Below, one piece after another: positions 1,942-63,509 of a stretch of 64,000 bases of DNA (position 1 is its first letter; every line of letters begins with the position of its first letter). The notes below the pieces were generated by a model that was not told the origin of the DNA, made no database searches, and saw only the letters and a program-made list of their open reading frames with translations. A program made the translations under genes and the position numbers. This stretch comes from Bilabrum cf. latius (Eukaryota), in NCBI GenBank assembly GCA_965178125.1, contig OZ237770.1, forward strand, positions 372,001 to 436,000. Direction: 5' to 3'.

Positions 1942-4900
1942 TCACGCCTCCCCAGCCGCCCCGCTCGCCCCTCCAACCGCCGCACCCCCATCACTCGTCA
2001 CACCACCCCGCCCCCCTCCGGCCCTCAGCCCCGCCACCTCCGCCCTCAGAAGCGCCAGCTCCCTCCTCTCCGCCTCCGCCGCAGCTGCACCACCCCCGCC
2101 CGACTTGCCCACGGCACCGAACTGAACCTTCCTGCACCGCTCGGCAAACTGCAGGGAACACATCGATTCCTCCGCGTTCCACTGCACCGGGGACACGTTC
2201 ACCATCATCAGCAGCTTGGCAGTACCTGACAACGAGTCCTGCAGCAGGAACGTGAGCTTGCTGTTGCGGAACGGGACGTGCCCCCCCGCTCCCGCCCCGG
2301 CTCCTCCCGCCGCGCTCCCGCTCTTGGCCTGCCTCTGCCCCAGTGCGGCAACCACCGCGCCAAGTGCACTCAGGCTCTTGTTGATGGCCTGCGCTTCTTT
2401 CAGCTGCTTACCCTGCGCCCTGGTCTTGGACAGCCTCTCTGACCCCGCCAGGTCGATCATGTGCAGCTTGGCACGCCACTTGCCTCCCGTGGCCCCGTCC
2501 TCCCCGCGGACCCGAACGGTTACAACCAGGTGTGACCTGCTGGAGTGCTCGTTCATGTCGTGTGCCGCCGCCGCCCGCCTCTTGCTTCCCTTCCGAAGCA
2601 CCTCCGCCACCTCTGCTGGGCTGCTCACCGCTTCCTCTGTAAGCCCCGGCACGTCCACACCACGGGCGGTGAGCCGCACCTCTAGAGTCGGGGGGCCACC
2701 TCCACCTGGTCTGCTCCCCCCCGCCCTGCGGCTGGCTTTCGATGAAGCTGCCGATGATCCCGCCCCTGCCTTGCCCGCACTCGCCACACCGGCCAGCAGG
2801 TCCCTCACCGTCTCATTGTAGATCTCCAGCATGGACACGCTGAAGCCGTACTTCATCCGGGGGGCCCTTGCACTGCCCTCCTCGAACAGCTCGCTGATGG
2901 CACGGTAGTTCACCCCCCTGTCCTCGGGCGGACCCTCCATGGTGTGCGTCTTACCCGAGCCCGTCTGGCCGTACGCAAGTATGGTGGCGTTGTACCCGTC
3001 CAGCACGCTGTGCACCAGCGGCCTCACCTCCTCGAACACCTCCCTCTGGCTCGACTCCGGGCGGAACACGCGGTCAAAATCGAACCTTCGCTTCAGCGCG
3101 CCCTCCTCGTCGGTGCTCAGCGAAAGTTCGTCCAGCGAACCCTTGGGGAAGGTCACCGCCTTCCTGCTGGCGAGCTTCCTGCCCCTCTCGTGGGACAGGA
3201 TCGGCCTGACCCTGCAGAATACCCGGATGGCGCCCCGCATGTCCACCAGAACATTGTGCAGCTTGCGCCTGCGCTTGCACTCGACGACGTGCATTGCCTT
3301 GTAGTGCTCCACCTCGCCTTTCATCTCTGCCTCTTTCTACATTACCCGCCTGTCAGCTTCCTACTTGGCTGCAGCTAGGTTTTCGGCATTCTCCAGAAGA
3401 GTAGATTCACGCATATCTTCACTCGCTTGCCTGACCGCACTTGCCTACTACTCGTCCCGCTCCTTGCCCAGAGCTGCCAGAGCCTGGGACTGCTGGTCGT
3501 CCCGCTCCTTGCCCAGAGCTGCCAGAGCCTAGGACTGCTGCTCGTCCCGCTCCTTGCCCAGAGCTGCAAGAGCCTGGGACTGCTGCTCGTCCCGCTCCTT
3601 GCCCAGAGCTGCCAGAGCCTACGACTGCTGCTCGTCCCGCTCCTTGCCCAGAGCTGCCAGAGCCTGGGACTGCTGCTCGTCCCGCTCCTTGCCCAGAGCT
3701 GCAAGAGCCTACGACTGCTGGTCGTCCCGCTCCTTGCCCAGAGCTGCCAGAGCCTGGGACTGCTGGTCGTCCCGCTCCTTGCCCAGAGCTGCCAGAGCCT
3801 ACGACTACTGCTCGTCCCGCTCCTTGCCCAGAGCTGCCAGAGCCTACGACTGCTGCTCGTCCCGCTCCTTGCCCAGAGCTGCCAGAGCCTACGACTGCTG
3901 CTCGTCCCGCTCCTTGCCCAGAGCTGCCAGAGCCTAGGACTGCTGCTCGTCCCGCTCCTTGCCCAGAGCTGCCAGAGCCTGGGACTGCTGCTCGTCCCGC
4001 TCCTTGCCCAGAGCTGCCAGAGCCTACGACTGCTGCTCGTCCCGCTCCTTGCCCAGAGCTGCCAGAGCCTGGGACTGCTGCTCGTCCCGCTCCTTGCCCA
4101 GAGCTGCCAGAGCCTACGACTGCTGCTCGTCCCGCTCCTTGCCCAGAGCTGCCAGAGCCTAGGACTGCTGCTCGTCCCGCTCCTTGCCCAGAGCTGCAAG
4201 AGCCTACGACTGCTGCTCGTCCCGCTCCTTGCCCAGAGCTGCCAGAGCCTACGACTGCTGCTCGTCCCGCTCCTTGCCCAGAGCTGCCAGAGCCTAGGAC
4301 TGCTGCTCGTCCCGCTCCTTGCCCAGAGCTGCCAGAGCCTAGGACTGCTGCTCGTCCCGCTCCTTGCCCAGAGCTGCCAGAGCCTAGGACTGCTGCTCGT
4401 CCCGCTCCTTGCCCAGAGCTGCCAGAGCCTGGGACTGCTGCTCGTCCCGCTCCTTGCCCAGAGCTGCCAGAGCCTACGACTACTGCTCGTCCCGCTCCTT
4501 GCCCAGAGCTGCAAGAGCCTACGACTGCTGCTCGTCCCGCTCCTTGCCCAGAGCTGCAAGAGCCTACGACTGCTGCTCGTCCCGCTCCTTGCCCAGAGCT
4601 GCCAGAGCCTACGACTGCTGCTCGTCCCGCTCCTTGCCCAGAGCTGCCAGAGCCTACGACTGCTGCTCGTCCCGCTCCTTGCCCAGAGCTGCCAGAGCCT
4701 GGGACTGCTGCTCGTCCCGCTCCTTGCCCAGAGCTGCCAGAGCCTACGACTGCTGCTCGTCCCGCTCCTTGCCCAGAGCTGCAAGAGCCTGGGACTGCTG
4801 CTCGTCCCGCTCCTTGCCCAGAGCTGCCAGAGCCTGGGACTGCTGCTCGTCCCGCTCCTTGCCCAGAGCTGCCAGAGCCTGGGACTGCTGCTCGTCCCGC

Positions 4901-7900
4901 TCCTTGCCCAGAGCTGCCAGAGCCTAGGACTACTGCTCGTCCCGCTCCTTGCCCAGAGCTGCCAGAGCCTAGGACTGCTGCTCGTCTTGTGTCTTGTGTA
5001 GCTCTGTTAACGCTTGCTGATGAGTCTCAGTAATCTGAGCAATGCGCTTGTGTAGCTCTGATGCATCCTCCTGTGCTGCTTCCAATGCTGCGCCCGATTT
5101 ACCAGCATCAGATGATAGCTGTTTTTCCAACTACTCTACTTTAGCATTGGTGGCTTGCATCTAGTGGTCCAATGCGACCTTAATGGACTACGCATCGGCA
5201 AGCGAGTCCTGTAGCTGCTGGTTCTGCTGCTCCTTGGCCTGCAAGTCGGTCTGTAGCTGCTGGTTCTGCTGCTCCTTGGCCTGCAAGTCGGTCTGTAGCT
5301 GCTGGTTCTGCTGCTCCTTGGCCTGCAAGTCGGTCTGTAGCTGCTGGTTCTGCTGCTCCTTGGCCTGCAAGTCGGTCTGTAGCTGCTGGTTCTGCTGCTC
5401 CTTGGCCTGCAAGTCGGTCTGTAGCTGCTGGTTCTGCTGCTCCTTGGCCTGCAAGTCGGTCTGTAGCTGCTGGTTCTGCTGCTGCAGCACAGCTTCATTG
5501 CTACGTTGCGCCTCGGCTTCCGCTGCCATCTTGGACCTGGATTTCTCAAGCTACCGATCCGCCTACTGTTTGCTTTCCTCAGCTGCGGTAAGCTATGCTT
5601 GCATCCGATCCATCTGGTTCTGCAGATCCACGATCTTCTTCCTGCTGACATCTAGGTCCTTCGCCAAGCGGTCCCTCTCCGTCTGCAGCTCCAAGACAAC
5701 GTCAGTGCCCTGCTGCTGGCCGCCGCGGCTGTCTGTGGAAGTGTCTGTGGGGGTCGCAGGTGCCGGCCGAAGTTGCTACGTCTCTGCCAGCTCGGCCGTC
5801 AGCTTGTGCGCCATCGCCCGACTGGCAGCCAGCTCCTTCTCGCGATCGTCCAACCGAGCCTCCAGCTCATCAATCATCTCCCTGTCCGAGTCCCGTTCCC
5901 GCTGCAATCGATCCAGCGCTTTTCGCCTGCTCTCTTCTGCTTTAGCGTCCCTGGCCCCTGCCTCCCGCAAGTCCTCCACTTCGGCCATCACGTCATCCAG
6001 ATTGCGCTGGGTATCGGATAGTTCCTTGCGGGCCTTCGTCAGCTGCATGCTCCTCTCCTGCAGCTGACTCGCCTGCCCCTGCAGCTCCTGCACCTCTCGC
6101 TCGAGAGCGCCGCATCGTGCCTGCTAGTCGACTAATCTGGCCTCGGCCTGTTCTGCGCGGTGCCTCAGCTCCTCCTCTTCTTCTTCTTCTTGCTGCTGCT
6201 GCTGCAGTGCTGCAGCTGCATCCTGATCCTGCTGGCTTGTGCCAGCGGCCGAATCACTCAAATTTCCCGCGCCCACACTGACTGCAGCGCTCGACGCACT
6301 TGCATGACCCTGCCCACTCGCTGGACCACCTGCCTGTGATGCAATCTGCGACTGCTTCTCCTTGTCCTCCTCATGTCTGCCCCTGTGAATGTATCTCTGC
6401 ACCATGATGCGAAGGGCCTGACACTCGGTGTGCAGCCGAGCACTTGTCACACGCTCTGCTTCCAGCTGCCGGCGAAGATTGGCCGCAGCAGTGGGGTCGA
6501 GCGCAGGGCTCGCAGCCACGTCAACATCGCACTGGCGCGCATCTACCTTGGCCTCGACGGCGGCCTCTCCGTCTCCACCTCCATCTCCATCTCCATCTCT
6601 CTTTCCACTCCCGAGTGTTGCGGCTGTCTCCAGCCTCGCTTCCGCCTCCCGGGCCCGGACCATCCACTGGTGGAGCTCCTTCCTGAGCGATGCACCACCC
6701 TGCAATGCATGCATGCCCGGTGGATTCGATTCCGGGTCCATATCGCGACCGTGTTCCCCCGCACCATCGCGGGGCTCGCCCCCTGCATCCTTCCCAATGC
6801 CCTCTGCTCCTGCTCCTGCTCCATCCAATCCGCCTGCGTCTGTTCGCGTGCCGTCCCCAGCGCCCGCACCAGCTCCCAGCTCCCCATCACCCACTCGCCC
6901 CTTGCCCAGCCTCACCTCAGCTAGTGCCAGCCGACTCGCCATGATGCCCAAGGCCTCCTCCTTCCTGCCCAGTTGCCACCTGGCGTCCTGAAGCGCCACC
7001 ACAGCACGACGAAGCGCAGCCTCGAGGGCCCGTGCCGGCATGGACCCGGCCACCGACAGGTCACGCGCCGCCGCGCTCGCCGCCTGGGCCGTGGGCGAGG
7101 ATGCCCGCCTCCGTGGATGATGCCTCACGGGTGTGCCGCTCGCCGATCGGAGCTGCGCCACGGTGGGAGAGGTGCGCTCGGGGCCCGCCTGTACTTCCTC
7201 GCGCACTGCGGCTGCGATGGAACGGGCCGCCGCAGATGCCGATGGTTTGGACCCGGATGATCCTGGAGAAAACAGCGCTTTCCTGCGCATCGGAGAGCTG
7301 TCCTCGTCATCCTCTGGCCCCCCATTCGATTCCGGATCCCCGTCCGCAGGTCTTGCCCTGCCACCGGTAGCGATACCCCGCCCCGTTGCCCTCGGTAGCG
7401 CCGGGGTAGCCTGCACGCTTGGGGGGAGGCTCGGGGGCTGCGGCTCCGACGACGAACCCCCGGTGGATTCCGGCTCCGGGTCGTTTCCATAGCCCGCAGG
7501 TGTTCTGGTCTGGCGGACAGCAGAGGCGGGAACAGGGGTGCGGTCTGCGGAACCGGCGCCGCGCGAACGCCCCACGGCCCCGCCTTCCGACGGAGATTGG
7601 ATCATGGGAGAAGGGGTGGGGGTCGGGGTCGGGTCCTCCCCCTCGACCTCTGTGTTCACCTATGCTTCCAACTGCTCCTGCTCCTGCTCCTGCTCCTGCT
7701 TCTGCACCCGGTCCTCATCCTCGTCCTCATCCTCGCCCACCAGTGATGTGATCAGCGAGCCGACGCCCTGCTCCAGTGACCCGCCCAGGCTGTACAAGAA
7801 CGAGCCGAAGCCTTCTTCCTCCTGCCCGTCCACCTCGTCCTTCCTACCCACCCCCTTGCTTGTAGTGGGCGAAGGGCCCAGCTCCCCAACCAGCGCACCA

Positions 7901-9138
7901 CCACAGTGCGATGCATCCAGTCGTTCCTTCTCCCACGATGATACCTATTTCAGCTCCGATTCCTCCACCCCCTGCAGCCACCTCGCCGCATCCCTCCCCC
8001 CCTGCAAAGCCGCGAGCAGCCGGAACCTCCACCTCGATTTGTTCTCCTCCTCGCTCAGCCTTGCCCCAAGCTGGGTCAGGGAACCCCGGAGCGCCGCGCA
8101 CTCTGCTTCGTGTTGCGCAGCGGCCACCCCCGCTTGTTCCCTGGCCTTGCGCGCCTGTGCCTCGGCCCCCCTCTGCCTCTCCTTCGCCTCTGACAGCCGG
8201 TCCGCGAACTGCTCCAGCTTACCCTACAGCACGGCGTAGTCGCTCTGGGACTGCTCCGACTGGCGACTTGCCTCCGCTGCTGCGGACTCGGCCGCGGTGG
8301 CGCGGGCTCGGGCGCGGGCCAGCTGCACCCGGGCGTCCCTCAGCTGGACGAGCAGGTGCTCCGTGCGGGTCTGCTCGGCGGCAACGGTGTGACGAGCGAG
8401 GGCGCTGGAGGCAGCTGCCGAGCCCGTAGTGGGGGCGGTTAGTTGAGATTGGGAGCCGCATGCCGAAGATGCCGCTAAGTCCCCACTGGCAGCGCTAGCC
8501 TCGGTCTGGTCCCGACACGATGCTTCCTCCCGGGACTGCAGCACCACCTGCCAGCATTCCGGGCCGAGGGTACCTTCCAAAGCGCTAGGACTGCTCGAGC
8601 CAGACTGACCTGTACTTTCAGATGCAGGCTTTGCATCCTACAAACAGGCCTCCAGCTTGTCAGCCATCATAAGCAAGGCTCCCTGCGAAGGTAGTATTGC
8701 AACTTCTCTACTGCCAAGAGGTTTGTTGGTATCGGCAAATCGACGCGACATCCACACTCGAACTGTAAACGTACCTATTGCTTGCGAATAAGCTGTGCTG
8801 AGCTTTGCTGCTACTCGTACATTAGTCGCTGCACATCGAGAAGTGCTTGCTTCGTTGCCTGCAATGTTGAATCAAGAACACCTAATCACGTGAGTACATG
8901 ACCCCATTGGACGCGAATCATGGAAATTCATCTAGATACGACTAACCTCCAGGGAATCATTGAGTTCTCTTTCCCGTAAAGCAGCTGTCTTTGAAACGGG
9001 TCTTTCCAGGCCGTTCGTACCTGCCAGTGCAGCTGTGGTCCGCTCCTTGTCAGTCGCTTCTTTTAGCAGCTCCTCGTCAGTCAAGCCTACAGGCTAATCA
9101 TCAACTTCATCTCCTAGAAGCCAGCCTGCGAATTCCAT
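1942..9138 (-). CDS. Kinesin-14 family (C-terminal motor) protein, ~2338 aa, with a long coiled-coil/repeat stalk. Predicted exons 9138-8947, 8858-8775, 8682-1942; TAG read as Gln
   Basis: Motor motifs RRKLHN..RGAIRVFCRVRP, AYGQTGSGKT, NEHSSRSH, DLAGSER and HVPFRNSKLT lie at the C-terminus. ORFs 1942, 5188, 5776, 6124, 7660, 7945 and 8224 share one frame separated only by TAG. Introns GTTAGT..TTGCAG (8946-8859) and GTACGT..TCGCAG (8774-8683) keep the frame. Terminal TGA at 1942-1944. Confidence 0.88.
3451..4986 (-). repeat. Coding tandem repeat, 34 x 45 bp, encoding QQSQALAALGKERDE
   Basis: The unit ctcgtcccgctccttgcccagagctgccagagcctgggactgctg repeats head-to-tail without spacers, in frame with the kinesin-14 motor. 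Confidence 0.97.
5209..5484 (-). repeat. Coding tandem repeat, ~6.5 x 42 bp, encoding QNQQLQTDLQAKEQ (two heptads)
   Basis: Identical units ctgtagctgctggttctgctgctccttggcctgcaagtcggt; translated in ORF 5188..5529. Confidence 0.95.
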
Positions 9139-9264
9139 GATTGTGACGCGGATGCGGTCGTGCGTAGCCCCAACCAATGTTAGAATTCATCTTCGAAAAA
9201 TTCCCCGGTTCAACAAGTTGGCAGCCAACAAATTGTACTCCCTTGTATCTCCTCAAAGTAAGGC
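9139..9264. promoter_or_regulatory. Putative bidirectional promoter (126 bp between divergent ATGs)
   Basis: AT-richer gap between the predicted kinesin-14 ATG (9138, -) and the membrane-protein ATG (9265, +). Inferred from gene layout only. Confidence 0.45.
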
Positions 9265-11935
9265 ATGGATGTCTAGCAATGCTGCAAGTGTCTGCTCGAG
9301 CAATTCAAGTGCCTCAAAGACCTTAGGGAGAGGTCAAGGCGGATTCTTGTATCGATAATGATTGGTGCATCGGTATATTCGTTAGGTATCGGTTTATATA
9401 CTGCTTACATGCTTGTAAGTCAATATTTGCAATACATGTTGCTATGCGGCCGGGTTCTTCAGCCAGTGTAATGCATCTCTTTCCAGGGTAATGCGTTGGC
9501 GTACTATAGTCGCCGCAGATTGGAACGGGAAAGATTGACATCCCAAACTTCAAAAATATCCTCACCACTCGACCGATAACAAACATCTCAATAGTCAATT
9601 CGCATGGAAGCTGTCCTAAAGATTTCGAGATGCTCTTGGATCCAAACGATATGATCTGGCCAGGAACAGCGTCAGGGGCTTGTGCTTGCCCGATGCCTGG
9701 CAAAATAGCCAACTCCCCTTCAAGCAGCGAGCTGTCCTGCAGTCACGAGCAAATCATTGCGGGATGTGCTACCGGTAAGATACAAGCAATGCGATTGCCA
9801 TATTTTTCGCAGCAACCCGCTCGGTCGTCATTCTTATCGTTAATGGACATTTCTGTTCATAGGCGTGCTTCACGTACTAATGTTTAAACTATTTGTACTA
9901 CTTCGCAGATCCGGCGATCGGCCCGATCGCTTCTGTTTGGCATGGCATTCGCGGACTATGTGTCCAGCGACATGCCACTGCTCGTCTATTCGCAAACGGG
10001 ACTGACAATCACGGGAAGACCCGATTATAGCCACGGCCAATGGTTTCCATGGCAGCATGCCCCACTGGCTGGAGAGCGTGCATTCCGAACGGCACGAGGG
10101 CAACCACTCCCTTGGATGGCTCTGCTTGCGTGCGGGACGACGCAGAGGTCCAAGAGCCCTGCCCCCTCACTGGGATTGCCCTTCTCACGAGGGACCAGCT
10201 AGATGCCTCAAATGGTACCTACCAAGGCAGTATCGCGCTGCCTAACGACGAATCGCTAGTACTGGCATACACGGTCGCGCATCCCGGTGGTGTACGGCCC
10301 GACGCCCAATGGGGAAAGCCTCTTGCGCCTCTGCAGCACTTCGAGCTTACTCTTGGCCAGTACCCGTGCTTACGAAGCGATGGTAACCCTGATGGCGTTC
10401 GCAGTTGGTACGCAGTGCAAGGGAGCAGTACAGCCGGTGATGGAAGCAAGTGGGACGATTGCTCGTTGCATCACACATAGAACACACTCTTTTCTGACTT
10501 TGCAACAGTCGGAGTGCAGCCAAGGCTTGGGTAGGGTGGCCACTTGCACGATACATTTGCGTAGTCAGAGCGTTGCACAGTGGATCCAGCTCGCCCAGAG
10601 GTACCAGCAATGCGGTGCAGTCCGAATGATACAATTTGTGAACGCGTTTCACACACAGGCCGTTGTGAGAAACTCCAACGCTTCGCTGCGATGTAGACTA
10701 AAGATCCAACAGTGAATGTATCTCTGGTAGCCAGAAAGGAGATGTGGGTCTCCCCATATTGCCCAGACATTGCTCAGTTGTTGGCGGGGCACATGAGCAC
10801 AAGCGCTGACGATCTTCAATACGCGGCGTACGTTGCAATCGCATTAAATTTGTTCGTTTCGTTGGTGCAAGCATCTCAACGATGCACGTTGCTCTGTGTT
10901 GGGTTTGCGTATGGCGGTTTGGAGCCTGATTCCGACGAAGATTCTGCCTCCAAGAGCGAATGGCTCAAGCATGTTGGCTGCATTGAATTCGACAATACGG
11001 GCGACTGGTACTAGGTACTAACCGAGTCGACCCCTTGTCAGCAGTGGGGCGGGGTTTTGCTTCTTGCTCTCTCGGTGTTCAACCTTGCTGCTCAACAGTT
11101 TGCTTTCTACTACGGCCGGAAACTGCTCCCTGTCGTTTTCGGGTACGACACTGGCGCAAGCTGCATGGAAGTGCCGGTGTATTGGGAATTTAATCGCGCC
11201 AGGCTATGGTACATGGGTATTAACAACAAGTTTGCTCAGACCTATTTTGCATCCTTCTTGCTCCTGTGCGGGGTACTGCTCATCTCAGTTGGGAGCTGCT
11301 GGCTTGCTTGCTTTCGGAAATGCTGTGGGCATCAACCCGACGAGCTAGAAGGGTCCATTGCTGAACGCGACTACCTTGAACTCGCTGACTGCTTGCGTGA
11401 GTAGGACACAGTCTTTGATGGGACAGACTAGCCAGGTCGCTCAATTGAAGCATTCGGACAAGTAGGTCCCGGAGCAGCCGGCTTCGCACATGTACCACTC
11501 GGGCTGTACTCCCCGGCAGACATCCGTACAAGTACACCGTGTGGAATACATGAGGATTAGTCTGACGAGGAAGCTGCCAGTGGGGAAGTTGAGGGGGACA
11601 TTTCGGAGCCTGAATACTAGTCCGTGTCAGTCCAACATGCAGAGACGGTGGCCTGCGATCGAATGCTCAGCACTAGTCGGCCCTACAAATACAGTAGCCG
11701 CAGGGGCAGCAACCGGGATCGGACAAGTCGACAAGCCGAGGAGTCCAGAACACCGCAAAGTGTTTCGTTGCCTGGCTAGGGCTCGGAAGCACTCATTGTA
11801 GATCCTGTTTCGCAGGAATAGTTCTATGAGTGCAACTCCAGGCAATTGGATCCCGATCTGGATTTGGACAACATGACGGAGCCAGCAGCAATGAGCGGAA
11901 CGAAAGCAGGTTCTCGGACCGAGAGTCTTGATTAA
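9265..11935 (+). CDS. Cys-rich multi-pass membrane protein of unknown function, ~810 aa. Predicted exons 9265-9414, 9519-9774, 9909-11935; ~13 in-frame TAG
   Basis: N-terminal hydrophobic segment (ILVSIMIGASVYSLGIGLYTAYML), Cys-rich ectodomain (PITNISIV..SCPKDFE..WPGTASGACAC), then three hydrophobic helices (ORFs 10712, 11057). Introns GTAAGT..CGCAG and GTAAGA..CGCAG restore the frame. Ends at TAA 11933-11935. Confidence 0.7.
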
Positions 11936-12216
11936 TTTGACTCCATGACTTGGTGTAGCCATTCCATCGGATGGATATTTGCCTATAGGGGAATCTTGCC
12001 CTGGTCACCATCCATGGCTATGGATGCTCCACGATTAAATCTATAGCCTATAATTATCCATGGGGGACGGCTAGCACTTATGCCAAAACCTATTCATCGC
12101 GTAGGCCTAGCGCAGAACGACGCACCATCATATCCATCCATCCACTGTACACCATCAGTTGCGTCCGGCATCCAAAGATCCGGGATTACGATTCCGAATC
12201 TGATCCAGATCCAGTC

Positions 12217-33808: not shown

Positions 33809-33841
<33 letters not shown>

Positions 33842-37246: not shown

Positions 37247-37427
37247 GGCGCAGCTTGCTAGCCGCGCAGACTGAGAAACGCCCGCGTCCGTCGGAGAAAC
37301 CAGATTTTGCGGAGCGAGGCCAGGTTCCGCTGCAGTGGTTCCCGCTGAGGTTCCATGACCACAAGCATGCCAAGGATGATCGAACGTGCGTTTTGATCCG
37401 GGAAACGATAAATCATCGTGCTTAACT

Positions 37428-39354: not shown

Positions 39355-39473
39355 GGTGTAGTACTGGCAGTAGTCGTTTCAGGGCTGAGATGCAGCCGGA
39401 GACATGGATCCAAATCAATTGGTGTAAATGCACGCAACATACAAAAAATAAGAATTTCACAGCCTCCCCTGTT

Positions 39474-40733: not shown

Positions 40734-40767
<34 letters not shown>

Positions 40768-43700: not shown

Positions 43701-43952
43701 CCGAACGACCGTCGTAGAGTCTCCACCACTGTGACGTCCTAGGAGCAAGGCGATGCATGAATCGTGACTGGTCCGTGATAGCTGCTGCATATCCTGAGCA
43801 AGCATGGCACCGCCGACCGCTTCAAGCGAGTAGCATATGCCAGTGAAGATGGATGTTGCTGTCTCTACTGTACGCCCCCCTACCACATGCGACTCTTCGC
43901 AGCAGTGCTGCTTGATACTTAAACAAACGGTTTCACGCTGACTAGATACCAT
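39474..43952 (-). CDS. Hypothetical Ala-rich protein, ~1492 aa (weak, unverified resemblance to UFM1 E3 ligase UFL1 architecture); 7 in-frame TAG
   Basis: ORFs 39474, 40533, 40971, 42045 and 42819 share one frame joined only by TAG (40533, 40971, 41658, 41874, 42036, 42045, 42819). Terminal TGA at 39474. Central KGKGSGKGKRKGKKGKG tract. Confidence 0.65.
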
Positions 43953-44115
43953 AAACTCTGCCTACTATGAGCGGTAGCTTGCGTTGTCCATTCACTGAAA
44001 TTTCAACACGCTACAAAGGACCACCGTTACGATAAATCAGATCCAAAACTACTGATTCCTGAACGGCACATTTCTGCTTTAGGTCTTGCATAAAGGAACG
44101 TTGTAATCCTTTGTC
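43953..44115. promoter_or_regulatory. Putative bidirectional promoter (163 bp)
   Basis: AT-rich gap between divergent predicted ATGs at 43952 (-) and 44116 (+). Confidence 0.45.
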
Positions 44116-55900: not shown

Positions 55901-58072
55901 CTCCGCATTCCCATTCCCCCCCCCACTCCCACTCCCTCTGCCACTGGCTTGGTGCTCCCCGAGCCGAATGCCCAGACCCTCCCCCGCCGTGGCCAAACAT
56001 GGCTGCAGCAGCCGAGTGAGCCTCGAGTCACGCCAGGGAACAAACGGGCCCTTGCCCCTCCTGCGGGCGTGCCTTGCCGCCGCCTCGCTGCCCCGCCCCG
56101 CCACCACCACCGTGGAGCCGGCCTCATCGGCAGCCGCAGCCAGGCCAGACACCACGGTCCCAAGCGCAGTCAGCGACGAGTTGATGTCCCGTGCCTCAGC
56201 CAGGGACTGGGGGTCTATCCCCGCCCCCGCACCGGGGTCCAGCCGCTGACCCCTCCCACCTCTACCCCCCTTCCCCTGGGGAGACCCCTTGGCCCCCGAC
56301 CATGGCCCCGCCCCCGCCGCTGCCCTATGCAGCCTCTCCGACCCCGCCAGATCCACGAAGGTCAGTCGACTCTCCTGCCAGGGCCCCACCTCGCGGACCC
56401 AGCCCCGCCCCGCCCCGCCCCCCTCCTCCTCACCACTCGTCACACCGTCATCCAGCCCGTCGAACCGTGACTGCAACCCACCCGAGGACTCCGCTGTCCC
56501 CCTCCCCCCTTCGGCTCCGTACCGACCACCACTCTCCACACCTGCCTCCCTGACCCTCCTCACCTGCCGCCTCCTCACTCGAACCAAAAAGAAGGAATGC
56601 CCGCGGGACGAGGCGTGGTTCCAAGCCGTCGATGCCACCGTCCGCTGCCTGGCGCCTTCGGACAACAAGCCGAGCACGCCCCTGACGTCACTGCATGCGT
56701 GTTCTCCAAGCCCACGGACCCAGGACCCCCCAGGCCCGTCCCGCACTTCCAAATCCCGCAGCACGCGGGACCCCTGCGTGTGACGAGTGCTGCCCACGGC
56801 GCCGCCTTGCCTGCCCCCCTCGGGCCCCCACTCGTCACCGTCCTCCTCCTCTCCTATCGCCGACCCCCCACTCGTCACACCGCCACCGCCTCGGCCGTCG
56901 TGGTGCTCCAAGAGGTCCTGTGCCCTCCCGAGATACAGCTGAAGGAAGGAAACGCTAAACCGGAACTCACTCCAGGACTCCACCTCGCACTCCACCCGGC
57001 CGTCTGCCCCTGCGTCCGCCCCTGCGTGCACCCCCCCCAGAATGGATGAGGCAGACGAGGACAGCGGGGACAGGGCGGGGCTCCCCACCCGCACGCCGGA
57101 CACATGCTCACGATCATGCTCGATGTCATGCTCATGCTCGCTGTCATGCTCATGCTCGGCTCTCCACTTGGCACCCCGACCAGCCGCCGCCCACGCAGCC
57201 GAGGGCGAGTCGGGCGCGAAGACTCCCTCCACCGCCCCCCTGCCCCTGCCTCTGTTTCCCCCCCCGCCCAAGCCAAGTGCCGAGGAAGCAGAGGCGCTGG
57301 AGGACGCGCGGGATCGGATCGCATCTCCCGCCCCATTGTTCCCCGGCCCACCGCCCCTCCCGCCCTGCATCCTCACATTCACCCTCCTCCTCATCCTCTA
57401 TAGATTCATCCTCCTCCTCTCTCTCCTTGGCCGCCCCAGCCGCGCCGCCGCCTCGAACAGCTCGTGCATGGCTCTCGGGATGAGACCCAGCCTAGAGGCG
57501 TCGTGCGCCGTGGCCCTGCGGCCGTCCAGCGAGGGCCCGAAGAGAGTGTAGGTCTTCCCCGAGCCAGTCTGACCATAGGCAAGCACCGTGGAGGACACGC
57601 CCCGCAGAGCGTCAAGCACCGCAGCGGCACCGGCGTCCCTGTACACGTCCGCCTGCGCCGCGTGGGGGTCGAAGGCGTGGTCGAAGACGAACCTTCGCTC
57701 GCGTTCGCTCCCCCGGGCCCCTGAGCCCCCGCTGGTGCCGGAGCTGCTCCGGGCACCGCTCTCGCTATCGTAAGGCCCCTCCCCCCGCCCCCCCCTCTGC
57801 TTGGATGGGGCCCTCGCCGCGCCCCGTCTGGGAGGCGAGGGCGATGCGGCTGATCGATTCCGTGCACCGCGCTGCCTGGAGCCAGACCTGGCCTTTGAGG
57901 AGCGCGTCTGCTGTGATTGCACGTGCTGGTGAGGGGCTGCTCGCAGCGTGATGCTCTGCTCTGACGGGTGGGCCTGGATGCGTTGGCACATGCCGTCGTG
58001 AGACGCGGGCGGGCGCAGGCGGGCGCAGATCGTGACGCGCTGGCAATCGACGACGCCCGATGACCGAGCCAT
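49958..58072 (-). CDS. Kinesin-like protein with N-terminal motor, coiled coil and long disordered tail, ~2704 aa; many in-frame TAG
   Basis: Motifs VTICARLRP, FVFDHAF, LAYGQTGSGKTYTL, GLIPR, SVSFLQLY, NHASSRGH, LTFVDLAGSER, INSSLTALG, FVPWRDSRLTRLLQ and SETQSSLLFAARA. ORFs 57398, 55253, 54797, 53636, 53270, 52475, 52019, 51245, 50648 and 49958 share one frame joined by TAG only. Ends at TAA 49958-49960, where GC content drops. Confidence 0.85.
53032..53130 (-). repeat. (CATGTG)n microsatellite encoding an (HA)n run
   Basis: catgtgcatgtg... tract; AHAHAPAHAHAH in ORF 52475..53251. Confidence 0.9.
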
Positions 58073-58456
58073 GATTGAAGATAAAGGGCTCTAGGGCTGA
58101 CCCGTCACAGGTGACACAGGCGCATCGTCATCCGCCCGACTCTGTGCACGAACCCTGCGCATGGCAAGCTTTGGAGGCCGGTACCGAGACTGCCCGGTTT
58201 GATCTCCCTATCGCTGCATGAAACCGATCGAGTATGTATTGACAGCTAATACCACCCGACCAAATATACAAATATGAGTAAACTTAGCGTGTGATTGCGG
58301 TGCAATCGCAAACGGCAAGCAACATTCGTCGTCACACCACTTTCCAAATCCAAGCAAATATTCCCTCCGCTACAGGGCGCTTTGCGCTCGAGAAGTAAGA
58401 GCGCCATCCGGTTTAGTAGACTAGTGCGCTACTGGCGCAGGCCTCTGGTTGATTAC

Positions 58457-61400
58457 ATGCTGCCTAACCCCTACAAACGGTTGCGAACAGAGGCCGGTCA
58501 GACAACCAGTACAGATCGATCGGCGTCTGGTAGTGTTATGAGCGAACGAGGAATTACACATGAACCCAGTAGGATACGCGATCCTATTGTCAGGCCTACA
58601 CCGCTGCATCCGGACTATGACGTGGACCGTGCGGCACAGCACCTGTCAGCGAACCGCCCCTCCGCGTCGGATTTCTTCTACATGCCCGCTGGCAAGGCCT
58701 GGTGGTTGCACTCGGAAGCCTGCAGGGAGGCCTAGGCCTCTGGAATAGCCTCAGAATGCGGCTGCCACTCTGTGCCCCAGCCATCACTCCCTGCCGAAGA
58801 CGGAGTAGTGTCTAGCACGTCCTCCCTACTGCCAGCGGTGCCCTCCTCCTCCCAGTGGGAGGGCCCTTGGCTCAGGTTCGCGAAACCGTACGCCTTCCGG
58901 TACAGGGCCTCTGCCAAGCGGCGCTGGCTGGGCCGCACTCTCCTGGACGTGGTGGAATCTGAGTTCGGAGGCTCCGAGCCCGGATGGTGGAGGGAGGGCA
59001 TCCGGTCGGGGCGGGTGCGGGTGCGGGGAAGGAGGGTGGACCCGGGGCACGTGCTGCGGGACGGTGACACGGTTGCGTCACACGTCATACGGTACGAGCC
59101 TCCTGCACTGGCAGTGTCGGGCGAGTGGGCCAGCGAGCCAGAGGCAGCCAAGACAGCCGTGCGGTCGCTGGTGCGCCATCTGCTCCCCGGGATGGCGGTG
59201 GTGGACAAGCCCCCGTCCGTGCCCGTGCACCCCTCAGGCCCCCACGGGCGGTAGAGCCTCACCATGCTGCTAGAGGGACTCGCGGGGATCGGGGGGTTGC
59301 ACCCGGTGCACCGGCTGGATCGGCCCACCGGTGGGTTGGTGCTCATGGGGAGGTGCAAGGCTGCCGCCAGGGAACTAACCCAGCTGTTGGCCACGGTGGA
59401 GGCGGGACTCAACAAGGAACAGCCTCAGGAGGAACTGGAGCACGGACATGAACCAGAGGGGGCGAAGGCCAGTGGGCAGGTGTCCGCTGCCAAGCCTTCC
59501 ACAGGACCGAGCGGTGACAAAGCACCGCGCGAGCCCCAGCCCCAGCCCCAGTCCCAGCCAATGTCAAAGCGGAAGGCCCGCAGGCTCGTAGCCATGCAGG
59601 AGGCGAAAGACCGGAAGAAGAGGGCCAGGGAACAAGCCAAGGGGGGCCTCATGGCTCGGCTGGAGGCAGCCATGGGGGGCAGGGAACAAGCCAGGGAACA
59701 AGGCTGGATGGCCGTCCGGAAGACGTACGTGGCCAGGGCCACGGCTGGGGGCTGGGCGGCGGTGGGGAGCGCACTCGTCACACCTCCTAGGGCGGGCGCG
59801 GGGCCCGAGGAGCTTGCAGAGGCGCAGGGGCGGCTCGCTCGGGCCTTCCCCCGCCCCTCCTGGCTGGGACCATTGGGCGGTGTGACGAGTGCGCCCGACT
59901 GGAGGGTGAGCTGGGAGTGGTGCGGGCCCATGGGGCCGGGCAAGAGCCTGTACGGGGGAGAGGTGAAGCAGGCTGTGACGAGTGATGAAGCGACGACGGG
60001 TGCGTCGCTCGACATAGGGGCAATCGATAGAGCCGCAGCATCTTCATCTTCATTCCCAACCGCAGCGCCGCCATCATCCGCAGCATCATCTCCTTCGCCG
60101 TCTCCTGCCCGGCCTCCCCACCCGCTGGGCTGGTTGTGGGGGGCGGGTCCGTTGCCCGCCGCAGCGACCGCAGGTCCCAAGCTGGGCAAGCGGCAGAGGG
60201 GGGAAATGCGAAGGACGGGTGCGGGTGCATTGCACGGTGGTGCTGCTCCAGTGGGTGTGACATCCGCTGGAGCCAGGGGTCATGCAACGGCGGGGGGTGC
60301 CCCTGCCTCTGGACCTGGCGCCGCCCCGCACTCGTCACACCGCGACTGGCCGGATCCCATCGCCGCGTCCTGCCCCTCGCCCGCCTCGCCGCTGGCCCCC
60401 GTGGACAGGCCCGGATATTGGCTCCGAGTCGAGTGCCCCCTGGGCTCCTTGATGCAGATGGCGCAGCACCTGAGGGGGCAGCGCGACAAGGCCAAGAATG
60501 AGGACGATGAAAAGGCCATGAAAGCGGACGAAGGCAAAGAAGTGGCGGGTGCTGATGGAGGGACGGGACCCCCTGATTTGGGCTCCGAGTCCCCGATCCC
60601 TCCCCGGCTGTGCACAGTTCAGAGCGCCCTGCCTGTGTGTGCGGGTGGCCGGCGGGCAGTGACCTACTTCAGGCCCATCGGGGGGTCTTGGTCATGGGGG
60701 GGTGATGGAGGGAGTGGGAGAGCTGCATCATCATCATCATCACCATCATCGTCGTCCTCGTCGTCATCATCATCATCATCATCATCTGGCCCAGTGTTTG
60801 CGTGTCGCCTGGCAAGCGGACGGACCCACCAGATCCGGGTGCACCTGCAGATGCTGGGCCTTCCCATCGAAAATGACCCCAAGTACGCCATGGAGACTGA
60901 CACCGGGTCACCATAGCATCTACATGCAGCAAGTTCAAGCTCAAGCTCAGGCGCAGGTGCAGGTGCATCGCACTGTAGCGCGCTGGACCAGCTCCGGGGC
61001 CTGCCGTCCCTCCAGCTGGCCATGCGCGAGTCAGGCGTGCAGTTGCCTGTGGGCCATGGCCAGAGCGTTGGAGAGAAGGAAAAAGAAGAGGTGGTGACGA
61101 GTGCAGTAGGAGCGGGTGATTTGGGGGCAGGAAGTGCAATGGGGGTGAGCAAGACGATCGAGGCTGCATCGGCTCCCGATGGGTCTCACTCGTCACACCC
61201 AGGAGAGTCCCTGTACCTGCGCGGAATCGCTGACCCCTTCCGTCCCGGGATCGTGGTGAGAGCCATGCAACGTGTGACGAGTGCATCGGGCCAGGCGGGC
61301 CCAGGGGCATCAGCGCCGCTCCTGGGAAGCAGTGCGCTGGCCCGCGCCGCTTCGATGGCAGAGCAGGCAGGGGTGCCCCGTGAGCCGGGAGATGATGAGG

Positions 61401-61711
61401 TGGTTGCAACCTGGGCGGAGCCGGGTGGTGGTAGTGGGGGCGGGGGCAGCGAATCCAAAGCAAAGGAGAAGGAGAAGCAATTCAAAGGTGCGGGGCATGG
61501 TGACGACGGGGGAGAGGCCCCCTTGCGGTGGGGCTAGATCCGTGGGGCCAGCGCATTTGAGACAAGAGGGGCCGAGAAGGAGTTCACGGCTGCTCAGCTG
61601 AAGCACATGGGCCTGTGGCTGCACTCGGTGAGGTACCAGGGGCCGGGGTTCTGCTTCGAGGTGCCTCTTCCCGGTTGGGCAGCTCCTCCTGGTAGAACCG
61701 GTTCGGCTTGA
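58457..61711 (+). CDS. RluA-family RNA pseudouridine synthase (RPUSD2/RIB2-like), ~1084 aa; 4 in-frame TAG
   Basis: Motifs PYAFRYRASAKRRWLGRTLLDV, an S4-like segment, VVDKPPSVPVHPSG, catalytic HRLDRPTGG, RKTYVAR and SGRTHQIRVHLQMLGLPIENDPKY. After TAGs at 60914 and 61535 comes the conserved end GLWLHSVRYQGPGFCFEVPLPGWA, then TGA at 61709. The other TAGs are at 58733 and 59252. Confidence 0.9.
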
Positions 61712-61995: not shown

Positions 61996-63509
61996 ATGTC
62001 AATGGTAAGCAAAAATGAGTTTTTGAAGAGGCTTGAAGAGACAGTGAGTGGAAAACGCCCCTCCGAGCTCGAAGCTGACCTGGTAGCAGTGCTGGATACG
62101 CTGCCCTCGGACTGCCACGACTGGGTAGACTGTTCAATTAGGGGTACGTCAAATGCGCTTGGAGTAGTGTCTGGTACTAGGAACGATAAAGCCGCAAAAG
62201 TATTGCTCGATCATGGGGCAGACCCAAATGGACGGCTTGGCCAAGTGAGACAAGTGCTCCATCTGTACGGCCAGTCGAACGATTTTTGCTGAGATTGCTT
62301 CCTTTCAATTGAATGCTAGATAATGCAGTGGGACCCACCGCTAGTGCACGGAGTAGTTGGTAGGAATACATCAGCATGCACAGACTTGCTCGTTGCGGGT
62401 GCTTCGATCCGCCAGGCGATTCAACATTATCCAGCCTTGGTAAGAACAACAATATCGCAAGAAGCCCCCCTACTCGTGATGCCAACTGACACAATTGATT
62501 TGATCGGGATCCTACTCTCCGCCATCACACCCACTTCCAGGTCTCGGACCCTGGCAATCAGCACGTCCTGCAGGTGAGCCTGGCTCAGATGATAGAAGGG
62601 AATATGAAGCAATGCCCAGGCCTACTAGCGAGTAAAGATGAATCGGGGCGCGCATCACGCTTCATAGACGTGCTGGGACTCCACGTGAGCGATGCGCCCG
62701 TCGATGTGCTCGCATACCTGCTCGTCCGGTCGTTGAGCGACCTCCCGGTTGTAACCGTGCTGCTGGACCTGGCCCAGTCGACACACCCTGGCGTGCTGGC
62801 CTGGAGGAAAGCCACAGAGACCAGCCACAGCTTGCTCCACGATATGCTGCTCGTCAGTCCCAAGACCCGGGCCACGTCCACTGCCTGGACAGACAAGGAC
62901 CGACATGGACATGCGCTGTGGTACTCGTAGCGACTTGTCAGGACCGTGGATGCGGGCAAATTGGCCTCGGTGTGGACACTGCTCAGGGCGCTTAGAATCA
63001 GCTGCGGGTCCGTGGTGCACTGCATTGCAGCGCTCCCGGAGCACCCCATGGATGAGGTGCGGCGGCACGTGCCTCCGCTGGGAGCGGGGGCCGTGGGGCG
63101 GGCCGTGCGGAGGGCGCAGAGAATCAGGAGATTGCACGATTTAAGGCATTGCGCGGATGCCAAGAGGGATGCTGGCCTGGTGTTTCAGGCGGCCAAAGAG
63201 GGCAGGCCCATGGAGCTGGCCAAGCGTCTGAGGCTGGGCGTGCTGGCGGGCGGGCTGGAGATGAAGGGCGAGGTGGAGGACGGGGCGGGCGGGACCAGGG
63301 TGATGGGTCCGCTGGAGGCGGCTCGGTTGGGAGGACATAACGAGTGCGTGAAGGTGCTGGAGGAATCGGAGAAAACCTCGTCAGTCAGGCGGGCGGATGC
63401 TCGGGCAAGGGTGCTAAAGATTAGGGGTGTGGAAGAGAAGGCAGCTGAGGAGGTGAGATAGCACAGCGAGCATGCCCGGGATCGTCTGGATCAGCCAATG
63501 CCTCGGTGA
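61996..63509 (+). CDS. Ankyrin-repeat-containing protein, ~430-440 aa. Predicted introns 62245-62328 and 62440-62573 (alternative acceptor at 62540); in-frame TAG at 62928 and 63459
   Basis: Ankyrin-like segments KAAKVLLDHGADPN, DPPLVHGVV..ACTDLLVAGA and GPLEAARLGGHNECVKVL. GT-AG junctions are phase-compatible. Terminal TGA at 63507. Confidence 0.65.

What the first reader, a model, noticed from the sequence alone, without database searches (positions are those of the whole stretch)
1942..63509. Non-standard nuclear genetic code: UAG is a sense codon, most likely Gln
Seen: every long gene is a chain of ORFs in one frame broken only at TAG. The BEACH gene has at least 23 TAGs, and I found no TAA/TGA over its 22.9 kb. 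TAGs also sit in or beside Gln codons: TAG-CAG-CAG-CAG-CAG-CAG-CAA at 25771-25751, CAG-TAG-CAA at 42041-42033, TAG-CAG at 6126-6121, and GAG-TAG-TAG at 3453-3445 where the adjacent repeat has GAG-CAG-CAG. Inference: UAG=Gln, equivalent to NCBI translation table 15. Established: nuclear UAG reassignment is rare and mostly known from AT-rich lineages such as ciliates and some metamonads, so a case in a very GC-rich genome would be notable. Standard-code annotation would fragment or pseudogenise most genes here.
Basis: partly seen in the sequence, partly recalled or inferred. Interest (0 to 1): 0.96.

Follow-up and report, generated by a model that had tools for sequence, protein, structure and literature searches.

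The report
Nuclear genes reading UAG as glutamine
This GC-rich stretch of a protist nuclear genome, probably from a stramenopile, uses the stop codon UAG as an ordinary glutamine codon, a rare change of the genetic code that seems unreported for this group.

Summary
Under the standard code the longest frame is 865 aa. With TAG read through, ten long frames appear. They include a 7,685-codon BEACH gene with 23 in-frame TAGs, two kinesins, NDH-2, pyruvate kinase, a chitin synthase and a pseudouridine synthase. Eight of these frames hold 124 TAG, 0 TAA and 0 TGA in 18,516 codons. All ten end in TGA (7) or TAA (3).

Spliced GT..AG contigs from three public runs carry the TAGs unchanged, so editing, splicing-out and assembly error are excluded.

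Glutamine is the best reading:
- In close relatives, 7 of 12 well-flanked TAG comparisons are Gln, about 20 ln units better than the next residue.
- Four orthologous sites show TAG against CAG, in both directions.
- One conserved NDH-2 column is Gln in 37 of 44 close hits.
- A 34-unit repeat alternates CAG and TAG at three Gln positions.

The code matches NCBI table 15. A 62-70%-identical metagenome relative also has TAG-rich frames. The organism is probably a stramenopile. I found no paper reporting this. The tRNA and eRF1 could not be examined.

The parts
14381..37438 (-). BEACH-domain giant gene: 7,685 codons, 23 in-frame TAG, no TAA/TGA, ends in TGA
   Evidence: Frames. Pfam Beach 6.4e-73. 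LRBA/neurobeachin 4e-62, aligned across the TAG at 19520-19522. TAG coordinates. X5 contigs cover 14 of the 15 TAGs in the laid part with 0 other letters.
1942..8871 (-). Kinesin-14-type gene (C-terminal motor): 2,309 codons, 42 in-frame TAG, ends in TGA
   Evidence: Pfam Kinesin 3.4e-99 and Microtub_bd. Frames. Orthologue in L001 with TAG against CAG in both directions.
3439..4968 (-). Tandem array of 34 units of 45 nt inside the kinesin-14 gene. Three Gln positions alternate between CAG and TAG (TAG in 1, 4 and 22 of 34 units)
   Evidence: The other variation is CTG/CTT and TCC/TCG (synonymous), GAG/GAC in 3 units, and one deviant unit (GCA, AGT).
9227..12040 (+). Transcribed gene of unknown family (membrane protein, here 'tm12'). 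Exons 9227-9414, 9519-9773 and 9908-12040. Spliced frame of 811 codons with 13 TAG, ATG at codon 2, TAA stop at 11933-11935, about 105 nt of 3' UTR
   Evidence: Spliced contig X5 record 1 (2,576 nt, two GT..AG joints, 0 other letters). Reconstruction. 12 of 12 exon-3 TAGs covered. No Pfam hit.
12217..14209 (-). Type II NADH dehydrogenase (NDH-2). Intron 13814-14028 (215 nt, GT..AG on the minus strand). 5 TAG in exon 2, including the conserved-column TAG at 12274-12276. TGA stop directly after the conserved C-terminus. The 5' limit is only where a spliced contig ends
   Evidence: Pfam Pyr_redox_2 and NDH2_C. Yeast Ndi1 2.5e-37. Joint seen in X5, X7 and X8. The splice restores the N-terminal GxGxxG region. 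Alignments.
37428..39023 (-). Pyruvate kinase: 531 codons, one TAG (37539-37541), ends in TGA after the conserved C-terminus
   Evidence: Pfam PK 5.4e-141 and PK_C. PDB 3eoe 7.9e-170. Stop.
39474..43991 (-). Long frame of unknown family: 1,505 codons, 9 TAG, ends in TGA. Gene limits not established
44370..49706 (+). Chitin synthase-like gene: 1,778 codons, 8 TAG, ends in TAA
   Evidence: Pfam Chitin_synth_2 3.7e-25. PDB chitin synthases 4.4e-07. Frames.
49958..58645 (-). Second kinesin gene with a long low-complexity tail: 2,895 codons, 21 TAG, ends in TAA
   Evidence: Pfam Kinesin 7.4e-50. Frames.
58295..61711 (+). RluA-type pseudouridine synthase with large inserts: 1,138 codons, 4 TAG, ends in TGA
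   Evidence: Pfam PseudoU_synth_2 1.7e-15. Weak RPUSD4 match.
62499..63509 (+). Frame of 336 codons with 2 TAG and no family (the finding's last coordinate). Not shown to be a gene

Best explanation
The window is nuclear DNA of a GC-rich, intron-poor protist, probably a stramenopile. Its cytosolic ribosomes read UAG as glutamine and keep UAA and UGA as stops, which is the code of NCBI table 15.

Shown here:
- TAG lies in frame about 125 times in real, transcribed, spliced genes and is neither edited nor spliced out.
- The residue at those sites in relatives is mostly Gln, and the relatives' codon is CAG.
- TAA and TGA never occur in frame and close every gene.

Inferred from how other UAG=Gln lineages work, not seen here:
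- a tRNA-Gln whose anticodon changed from CUG to CUA
- an eRF1 that no longer recognises UAG well.

The trait is shared by a metagenome relative at 62-70% NDH-2 identity. Open-reading-frame limits suggest it is also shared by database relatives at 94% and 72% identity. It therefore looks like a property of a lineage rather than one strain.
For: 1. Frames. Eight long frames hold 124 TAG, 0 TAA and 0 TGA in 18,516 codons, and pyruvate kinase adds 1 TAG in 531 codons. In the other two frames of the BEACH gene strand TGA occurs 117 and 134 times.

2. Homology crosses TAGs inside the BEACH, NDH-2 and pyruvate kinase domains.

3. Transcripts. Runs X5, X7 and X8 (two studies) hold contigs with GT..AG joints at 9414>9519, 9773>9908 and 13813>14029. 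The spliced X5 contig carries all 12 TAGs of tm12 exon 3. X5 pieces carry 14 of the 15 BEACH TAGs in the laid stretch, with 0 other letters. The only difference listed anywhere is 13222 C>T in X7. The spliced tm12 message has ATG, 13 TAG, then TAA and about 105 nt of 3' UTR.

4. Amino acid.
- The closest relative, P0001 (94% identical), has Q, K, Q, Q at four window TAGs.
- Taking window TAGs and relatives' TAGs together, sites with at least 9 of 16 identical flanking residues give Q 7, E 2, K 1, V 1, R 1 (12 in all). The empirical ln-likelihood is -20.5 for Q, -40.3 for E, -41.1 for K and -56.6 for L. True Gln codons in the same alignments are conserved in 65% of pairs.
- Four orthologous sites are TAG against CAG, two in each direction.
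- The NDH-2 column WRNRA[TAG]VPADW is Q in 37 of 44 hits with well-matched flanks.
- In the 34-unit repeat, CAG/TAG alternation behaves like the two synonymous changes also seen there.

5. Stops. The 10 frames end in TGA (7) or TAA (3). NDH-2 and pyruvate kinase stop at TGA right after their conserved C-termini. The relative's NDH-2 stops at TAA at the same place.

6. Lineage. L001 and L002 have 11 TAG in 1,229 codons and 7 TAG in 363 codons of orthologous kinesin and BEACH frames. The window, P0001, P0002 and P0003 form one clade with 100% support.
Against: - No tRNA gene lies in the window, no Rfam match at all and no genome is held. The decoding machinery is therefore entirely inferred.
- There are no peptide data.
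- Most TAG columns are uninformative or not Gln. The pyruvate kinase column has Q in 1 of 98 hits. The BEACH column has Q 9, K 7, L 3, R 3, V 2, W 2 of 26, and all nine Q are land-plant sequences. The PDB partners show A (LRBA and neurobeachin), K (yeast Ndi1) and L (RPUSD4).
- Over all 118 NDH-2 hits the conserved column is L 70, Q 38, S 7. Gln wins only among the closer hits.
- The 72% relative P0002 has V and E at two window TAGs.
- The 12 comparisons are not independent, because some window TAGs are counted against two relatives.
- TAG is not enriched beside Gln codons outside the repeat.
- The tool labels X5 'RNA? (probably DNA)'. Its cDNA nature rests on the spliced joints alone.
Confidence: 0.88

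Rival explanations
1. UAG is a sense codon but stands for another amino acid. Candidates are Leu (as in the rhizarian exLh), Glu (as in peritrichs and Blastocrithidia) or Lys.
For: Over all 118 NDH-2 hits the conserved column is L in 70. Among the 12 well-flanked comparisons, E appears twice and K, V and R once each. The BEACH column has K in 7 and L in 3 of 26.
Against: - ln-likelihood is -20.5 for Q against -40.3 (E), -41.1 (K) and -56.6 (L).
- L never appears among the 12 close comparisons.
- The 94% relative has Q at 3 of 4 sites.
- TAG pairs with CAG at 4 orthologous sites.
- Among NDH-2 hits with matched flanks, Q is 37 and L is 5 of 44.
- The CAG/TAG alternation in the repeat sits beside otherwise almost purely synonymous variation.
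Confidence: 0.05
2. UAG is ambiguous. It is read as Gln inside genes but also ends some genes, depending on position, as in Condylostoma or karyorelictid ciliates.
For: This cannot be excluded from 10 gene ends. With TAG read through, a TAG terminator would be invisible in a frame analysis.
Against: - All 10 frames end in TGA or TAA.
- NDH-2 and pyruvate kinase end in TGA directly after their conserved C-termini.
- The tm12 transcript contig ends about 105 nt after its TAA.
- No conserved C-terminus coincides with a TAG.
Confidence: 0.07
3. The TAGs are not translated. They would reflect pseudogenes, assembly or sequencing errors, U-to-C editing of the mRNA, or tiny introns that remove them.
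For: None found. Standard-code annotation would give this impression.
Against: - The same letters stand in runs of four studies. Pieces of X6 cover 12 of 12 tm12 TAGs and 5 of 5 NDH-2 exon-2 TAGs unchanged.
- Spliced contigs keep every covered TAG. No joint removes one, and the only base difference is 13222 C>T.
- Frames of up to 23 kb with no TAA or TGA are incompatible with decay.
- A diverged relative keeps long TAG-containing frames in the same genes.
Confidence: 0.01
4. UAG is still formally a stop, but near-cognate tRNA-Gln(CUG) reads it through efficiently without a dedicated CUA tRNA.
For: Near-cognate Gln readthrough of UAG exists in standard-code organisms (the abstract of PMC13192750, seen only in the listing). 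No tRNA could be examined here.
Against: A gene with 23 TAGs (BEACH) or 42 TAGs (kinesin-14) needs near-complete decoding at each site to give any full-length product. TAG makes up 124 of 962 putative Gln codons, which is ordinary codon usage and not a rare event.
Confidence: 0.03

Closest known systems
Iotanema spirale (Fornicata): nuclear code with UAG=Gln and UAA/UGA as stops (Panek et al. 2017, PMC5304391; abstract and passages read)
   Same: UAG alone is reassigned, to glutamine, while UAA is kept as a stop. In both cases the code was inferred from transcripts and alignments.
   Different: A different supergroup (metamonad against probable stramenopile). Iotanema is an anaerobic endobiont. 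Its eRF1 has a T32G change in the GTS motif, whereas eRF1 could not be seen here. The genome here is 64% G+C.
Phyllopharyngean ciliates Hartmannula sinica and Trochilia petrani, and Protocruzia tuzeti: UAG=Gln, table 15 (McGowan et al. 2024, PMC11687900; passages read)
   Same: The same code table. Internal UAGs fall at positions where Gln is conserved in 58-70% of cases, similar to the 7 of 12 found here.
   Different: These are ciliates, a group with many code changes. That paper lists no stramenopile case ('stramenopile' occurs 0 times in its text).
Rhizarian sp. exLh: UAG=Leu (PMC5304391) and Scotinosphaera: UAG=Ser (cited in PMC11687900)
   Same: UAG is uncoupled from UAA in a non-ciliate nuclear genome. 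The rhizarian was discovered inside data filed under another organism. The present DNA likewise turns up under four organism labels.
   Different: A different amino acid. Leu has ln-likelihood -56.6 against -20.5 for Gln here, and Ser has -47.9.
Table 6 codes (UAA and UAG both Gln: many ciliates, hexamitid diplomonads, some ulvophyte algae)
   Same: UAG is read as Gln.
   Different: UAA is not a sense codon here. There are 0 in-frame TAA in 18,516 codons, and 3 of 10 genes end in TAA.
Cafeteria (Bicosoecida), the nearest named relative for NDH-2 (about 50% identity)
   Same: The NDH-2 of the window's clade and that of Cafeteria lie in one 33-row clade with 99% support. From recall, not tested here: Cafeteria is a GC-rich, intron-poor heterotrophic stramenopile.
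   Different: No code change is reported for Cafeteria in the papers found (listing). The window's clade sits on its own long stem (0.63), and its sister group is unresolved.

Membership tests
NCBI translation table 15 (UAG=Gln; UAA and UGA stop) | UAG is translated, not a terminator | tested here: met
   124 in-frame TAG in 18,516 codons of 8 genes. Homology crosses TAGs. Spliced transcripts keep them.
NCBI translation table 15 (UAG=Gln; UAA and UGA stop) | UAG specifies glutamine | tested here: met
   Q in 7 of 12 well-flanked comparisons with close relatives, ln-likelihood -20.5 against -40.3 for the next residue. TAG against CAG at 4 orthologous sites. NDH-2 column Q in 37 of 44 close hits. 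Repeat array. No peptide evidence.
NCBI translation table 15 (UAG=Gln; UAA and UGA stop) | UAA remains a stop | tested here: met
   0 in-frame TAA. 3 of 10 frames end in TAA. The tm12 transcript contig ends about 105 nt after its TAA. The relative's NDH-2 ends in TAA at the conserved C-terminus.
NCBI translation table 15 (UAG=Gln; UAA and UGA stop) | UGA remains a stop | tested here: met
   0 in-frame TGA, against 117 and 134 in the other two frames of the BEACH gene strand. 7 of 10 frames end in TGA, including NDH-2 and pyruvate kinase at their conserved C-termini.
NCBI translation table 15 (UAG=Gln; UAA and UGA stop) | A cognate tRNA-Gln with anticodon CUA | not testable with these tools
   No tRNA in the window, no Rfam match, no genome held.
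NCBI translation table 15 (UAG=Gln; UAA and UGA stop) | eRF1 N-domain altered at residues that read the third stop-codon base (GTS, NIKS or YxCxxxF regions) | not testable with these tools
   eRF1 is not in the window, and no genome or transcriptome of the organism can be searched.
Table 6 (UAA and UAG = Gln) | UAA is also a Gln codon | tested here: not met
   0 in-frame TAA. TAA ends 3 of 10 frames.
UAG=Leu codes (rhizarian exLh type) | UAG aligns with Leu in relatives | tested here: not met
   L in 0 of 12 close comparisons, ln-likelihood -56.6. L prevails only among the more distant NDH-2 hits (70 of 118).
Ambiguous stop/sense codes (Condylostoma, karyorelictids) | The same codon also terminates genes, depending on context | tested here: inconclusive
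   None of the 10 gene ends uses TAG, but 10 genes are too few and no 3'-end data exist.
Stramenopiles (organism placement) | Genes group with stramenopile homologues in trees | tested here: inconclusive
   Kinesin-14 falls in a 24-row clade (SH-aLRT 94, below the 95 star) whose named members are all ochrophytes or oomycetes. NDH-2 lies in a 99%-supported clade whose only named member is Cafeteria. Named neighbours of pyruvate kinase are mixed: Aphanomyces, a pelagophyte, Luapelamoeba, Naegleria, Pycnococcus and a moth record. There is no rRNA in the window.

The most novel reading that the evidence does not exclude
This would be the first departure from the standard nuclear genetic code in stramenopiles. 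It would be carried by a whole, still unnamed lineage with at least three divergent members, at 94%, 72% and 62-70% NDH-2 identity to the window. It would also have arisen in a genome of about 64% G+C, where AT-pressure 'codon capture' cannot explain the loss of UAG as a stop. The same genomes scatter an exact 12-base word through their coding sequences, which may point to a further unknown genome-level process.
Probability: 0.5. Interest if true: 0.85.

Novelty: new member of a known kind. Interest (0 to 1): 0.75.

Why it matters
Nuclear code changes are few, and those that separate UAG from UAA are fewer still. The passages read in PMC11687900 and PMC5304391 list Iotanema, Protocruzia, two phyllopharyngean ciliates, one rhizarian, Scotinosphaera and one oligohymenophorean ciliate. 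A case in a probable stramenopile with a GC-rich genome would have three uses.

1. It adds an independent origin with which to test which eRF1 and tRNA changes are really needed.
2. It tests ideas that tie stop-codon loss to base composition.
3. It has a practical side. Standard-code gene calling breaks or deletes most genes of this organism. The database proteins of its relatives already look cut at TAG: P0001 starts just after a window TAG position, and P0002 ends exactly at one. The organism's DNA also sits in data sets filed under four organism labels.

Tried and rejected
- Whole genome: none is held, so there was no tRNA, eRF1 or rRNA search.
- tRNA scan of the window: 0 genes. Rfam: 0 matches.
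- Sequencing runs: no listed holder is on record as RNA. The RNA nature of X5, X7 and X8 is inferred from the spliced joints only. Runs X9 and X10 held next to none of the words.
- Earlier findings of this scan: nothing for this genome or for look-alike stretches. The word search returned only phage TAG=Gln cases and one UGA case, none relevant.
- BEACH search for shorter fragments of close relatives: only 26 distant BEACH proteins. Its one usable TAG column is variable.
- Kinesin-14 search: no close relatives. It was used only for the tree.
- Pyruvate kinase search of 1.84 billion representatives: best full-length identities about 50-65%. The TAG column is variable, with Q in 1 of 98, and the named neighbours are taxonomically mixed.
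- PDB alignments for the pseudouridine synthase and the chitin synthase: the TAG lies at a weakly aligned position or outside the aligned part.
- 'TAG next to Gln codons' test: not above background outside the repeat.
- Of the 80 metagenome loci fetched, only L001 and L002 are close relatives. The other 78 are at most 34% identical and were not used.
- Pfam gave nothing for tm12, the 1,505-codon frame, 62499-63509 or 3-1523, nor for the antisense frames tested.
- Literature: no paper reporting a nuclear code change in stramenopiles was found in searches. The 12-mer string search found only unrelated primer matches. Supplementary files were not consulted.

Full report
**What is in the window**

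The 64-kb window is 63.8% G+C (0.54-0.69 per 4-kb bin). Read with the standard code it looks like a field of broken frames: 42 stop-to-stop frames of 300 aa or more, the longest 865 aa. If TAG alone is read through, the pieces on the gene strands fuse into a few very long frames:

| Coordinates | Codons | In-frame TAG |
|---|---|---|
| 14381-37438(-) | 7,685 | 23 |
| 1942-8871(-) | 2,309 | 42 |
| 49958-58645(-) | 2,895 | 21 |
| 44370-49706(+) | 1,778 | 8 |
| 39474-43991(-) | 1,505 | 9 |
| 58295-61711(+) | 1,138 | 4 |
| 12217-14451(-) | 744 | 7 |
| 9881-11935(+) | 684 | 12 |

Pfam and PDB searches name most of them:
- a BEACH-domain protein (Beach 6.4e-73; LRBA and neurobeachin 4e-62)
- a kinesin-14-type motor protein (Kinesin 3.4e-99)
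- a second kinesin (7.4e-50)
- a type II NADH dehydrogenase (yeast Ndi1 2.5e-37)
- a chitin synthase (3.7e-25)
- an RluA-type pseudouridine synthase (1.7e-15)
- a pyruvate kinase at 37428-39023(-) with a single TAG (PK 5.4e-141; PDB 3eoe 7.9e-170).

These are ordinary eukaryotic cellular genes.

**Is the observation more than chance?**

Yes. Eight frames together hold 124 TAG, 0 TAA and 0 TGA in 18,516 codons. In the two other frames of the BEACH gene strand TGA occurs 117 and 134 times, and TAG 46 and 48 times. A 23-kb frame free of TGA cannot arise by chance at that density.

All ten long frames end in TGA (7) or TAA (3).

**Are the TAGs real and present in mRNA?**

The stretch 12217-21000 is held by public runs of four studies. 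I laid four of the runs on 9001-29000 (contigs only, no raw reads).

Three runs, X5, X7 and X8 from two studies, contain spliced forms:
- joints 9414>9519 (104 nt) and 9773>9908 (134 nt), with GT..AG ends on the plus strand
- joint 13813>14029 (215 nt), with CT..AC ends, which is GT..AG on the minus strand, inside NDH-2.

The tool only guesses these runs to be RNA and calls X5 'probably DNA'. Their cDNA content rests on these joints.

The NDH-2 joint restores the missing N-terminal GxGxxG nucleotide-binding region in frame. The 2,576-nt spliced X5 contig is a complete message for a membrane protein of no known family ('tm12'). It has ATG at codon 2 of an 811-codon frame, 13 TAG, then TAA and about 105 nt of 3' UTR.

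The listed X5 pieces cover 12 of 12 TAGs of tm12 exon 3 and 14 of the 15 BEACH TAGs in the laid stretch, all with 0 other letters. The single base difference reported for any run is 13222 C>T in X7, which is not at a TAG. No joint removes a TAG.

Assembly error, pseudogenes, U-to-C editing and splicing-out are therefore excluded as far as contigs can show.

**Which amino acid?**

Most TAGs lie in variable columns and say nothing:
- The pyruvate kinase column has Q in 1 of 98 aligned hits.
- The BEACH column has Q 9, K 7, L 3, R 3, V 2, W 2 of 26, and the nine Q are all land plants.
- The PDB partners show A, K and L.
- The chitin synthase TAGs fall outside the aligned part.

The informative evidence comes from close relatives.

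An NDH-2 search found P0001 (94% identity), P0002 (72%) and P0003 (61%). With the window they form one clade with 100% support. P0001 has Q, K, Q, Q at four window TAGs.

A metagenome scan recovered the DNA of the P0003 organism as L001 and L002 (54-58% G+C). Its orthologous kinesin-14 and BEACH frames themselves carry 11 TAG in 1,229 codons and 7 TAG in 363 codons. Its NDH-2 ends in TAA at the conserved C-terminus.

I counted every site where one partner has TAG and at least 9 of the 16 flanking residues are identical. The other partner has Q 7, E 2, K 1, V 1, R 1 (12 sites). I scored these against substitution frequencies taken from the same alignments. The ln-likelihood is -20.5 for Gln, -40.3 for Glu, -41.1 for Lys and -56.6 for Leu. 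Genuine CAG/CAA codons are conserved in 65% of pairs, which matches 7 of 12. These 12 are not fully independent, because some window TAGs are compared with two relatives.

At the DNA level four orthologous sites are TAG against CAG, two in each direction.

One TAG (12274-12276) lies in a conserved NDH-2 column, WRNRA[TAG]VPADW. Among hits with at least 8 of 16 identical flanks it is Q 37, L 5, R 1, N 1 (44). Over all 118 hits it is L 70, Q 38, S 7, so Leu prevails among the more distant, largely bacterial, sequences.

The kinesin-14 gene also contains 34 tandem 45-nt units (3439-4968). Their variation is:
- CTG/CTT and TCC/TCG, both synonymous
- GAG/GAC in 3 units
- one deviant last unit
- CAG/TAG at three Gln positions (TAG in 1, 4 and 22 of 34 units).

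The CAG/TAG change behaves like the synonymous changes there.

Outside that array TAG is not found beside Gln codons more often than any other codon is (8 of 194 against 132 of 1,549 for Gln codons).

**The code and how it probably works**

UAG=Gln with UAA and UGA kept as stops is NCBI table 15. UAA as Gln (table 6) is excluded: there are 0 in-frame TAA, and 3 of 10 genes end in TAA.

TAG makes up 124 of 962 putative Gln codons. It is rarest in pyruvate kinase (1 TAG) and most frequent in tm12 (12 TAG against 26 CAG/CAA).

The mechanism is inferred from other lineages, not seen here. The likely elements are a tRNA-Gln whose anticodon changed from CUG to CUA, and an eRF1 with weakened recognition of the third-position G. 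PMC5304391 proposes the latter for Iotanema (T32G in the GTS motif) and for the rhizarian exLh (passages read).

Neither element could be examined. The window has no tRNA gene and no Rfam match, and no genome is held.

Whether UAG also ends some genes cannot be settled from ten gene ends.

**Who is it?**

- The nearest named NDH-2 is Cafeteria, at about 50% identity. The window's clade and the Cafeteria clade lie in one 99%-supported group of 33 rows, with unresolved order and a long stem (0.63) under the window's clade.
- The kinesin-14 motor falls in a 24-row clade (SH-aLRT 94, just under the star threshold) whose named members are all ochrophytes or oomycetes.
- Named neighbours of pyruvate kinase are mixed and do not help.

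A stramenopile outside the well-sampled groups is the best guess, at roughly 0.7. It is not shown.

**Comparison with what is known**

UAG-only reassignment to Gln is described for Iotanema spirale, Protocruzia tuzeti and two phyllopharyngean ciliates. UAG=Leu is described for a rhizarian and UAG=Ser for Scotinosphaera (PMC11687900 and PMC5304391, passages read).

Six full-text searches combining genetic-code terms with stramenopile group names found no report of a nuclear code change in stramenopiles. A 2024 overview of stramenopiles mentions 'genetic code' only in a reference on mitochondrial codes. Supplementary files were not consulted, and subscription journals are not in the library.

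**Verdict**

It is a known kind of code (table 15) in what appears to be a new and unexpected lineage, a GC-rich probable stramenopile, and at least one diverged relative shares it.

My estimates are about 0.97 for UAG as a sense codon, about 0.9 for Gln, and 0.88 for the whole statement.

It ranks as a new member of a known kind. It would be of clear interest to people who study code evolution, and it matters for annotating this organism. The decoding machinery and the organism's identity remain to be established.

Noticed in passing
Whole window, e.g. 14737-14748, 22018-22029, 54783-54794; also L001:3852-3863: The exact 12-base word GTGTGACGAGTG occurs 45 times, against 0.01 expected, and its flanks are unrelated. 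All 45 copies lie inside long reading frames, 30 sense and 15 antisense. 27 of the 30 sense copies are in the frame that gives (G)VTS, and none is in the frame that would create TGA. The word is dense in the BEACH gene (20), the second kinesin (12) and the pseudouridine synthase (5). It is absent from pyruvate kinase, NDH-2, the chitin synthase and tm12. One copy is in the metagenome relative. Transcript contigs run through the copies unchanged. A literature string search found only primers. Unexplained.
   Followed up: partly
window:12217-21000 (runs X1-X8): The same DNA is held by runs filed under four coded organism labels (A-D) in four studies. The organism may therefore be a contaminant, symbiont or prey in other organisms' data sets, and any label attached to the window may not name its true owner.
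   Followed up: no
9415-9518, 9774-9907 (+) and 13814-14028 (-): Three short spliceosomal GT..AG introns (104, 134 and 215 nt) are confirmed by spliced contigs. By contrast the 23-kb BEACH frame is uninterrupted. Introns are few and lie near the 5' ends of genes.
   Followed up: partly
14029-14451: The BEACH stop codon (14381-14383) lies inside or next to the 5' exon region of the next gene on the same strand, NDH-2. The X5 BEACH contig stops at 14378, only 3 nt past that stop. Either gene spacing is extremely tight or the transcripts overlap.
   Followed up: no
L001:1146-1984 compared with window 8871-12217: In the relative, NDH-2 is followed directly by the kinesin-14 orthologue, and no tm12 gene lies between them. 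In L002 the BEACH 5' end lies upstream of NDH-2 on the opposite strand. Local gene order therefore differs between the two organisms.
   Followed up: partly
P0001 and P0002 (database proteins of relatives): P0001 starts three residues after a window TAG position. P0002 ends exactly at the conserved NDH-2 TAG column. This is what standard-code gene calling would do to TAG-containing genes, and it hints that these relatives have TAG at the same sites.
   Followed up: no
5190-5560 and 48900-49250: There are further in-frame tandem repeats: seven 14-residue Gln-rich units in the kinesin-14 gene and a run of identical serine- and Gln-rich units near the C-terminus of the chitin synthase (translation). 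Coordinates are approximate.
   Followed up: no
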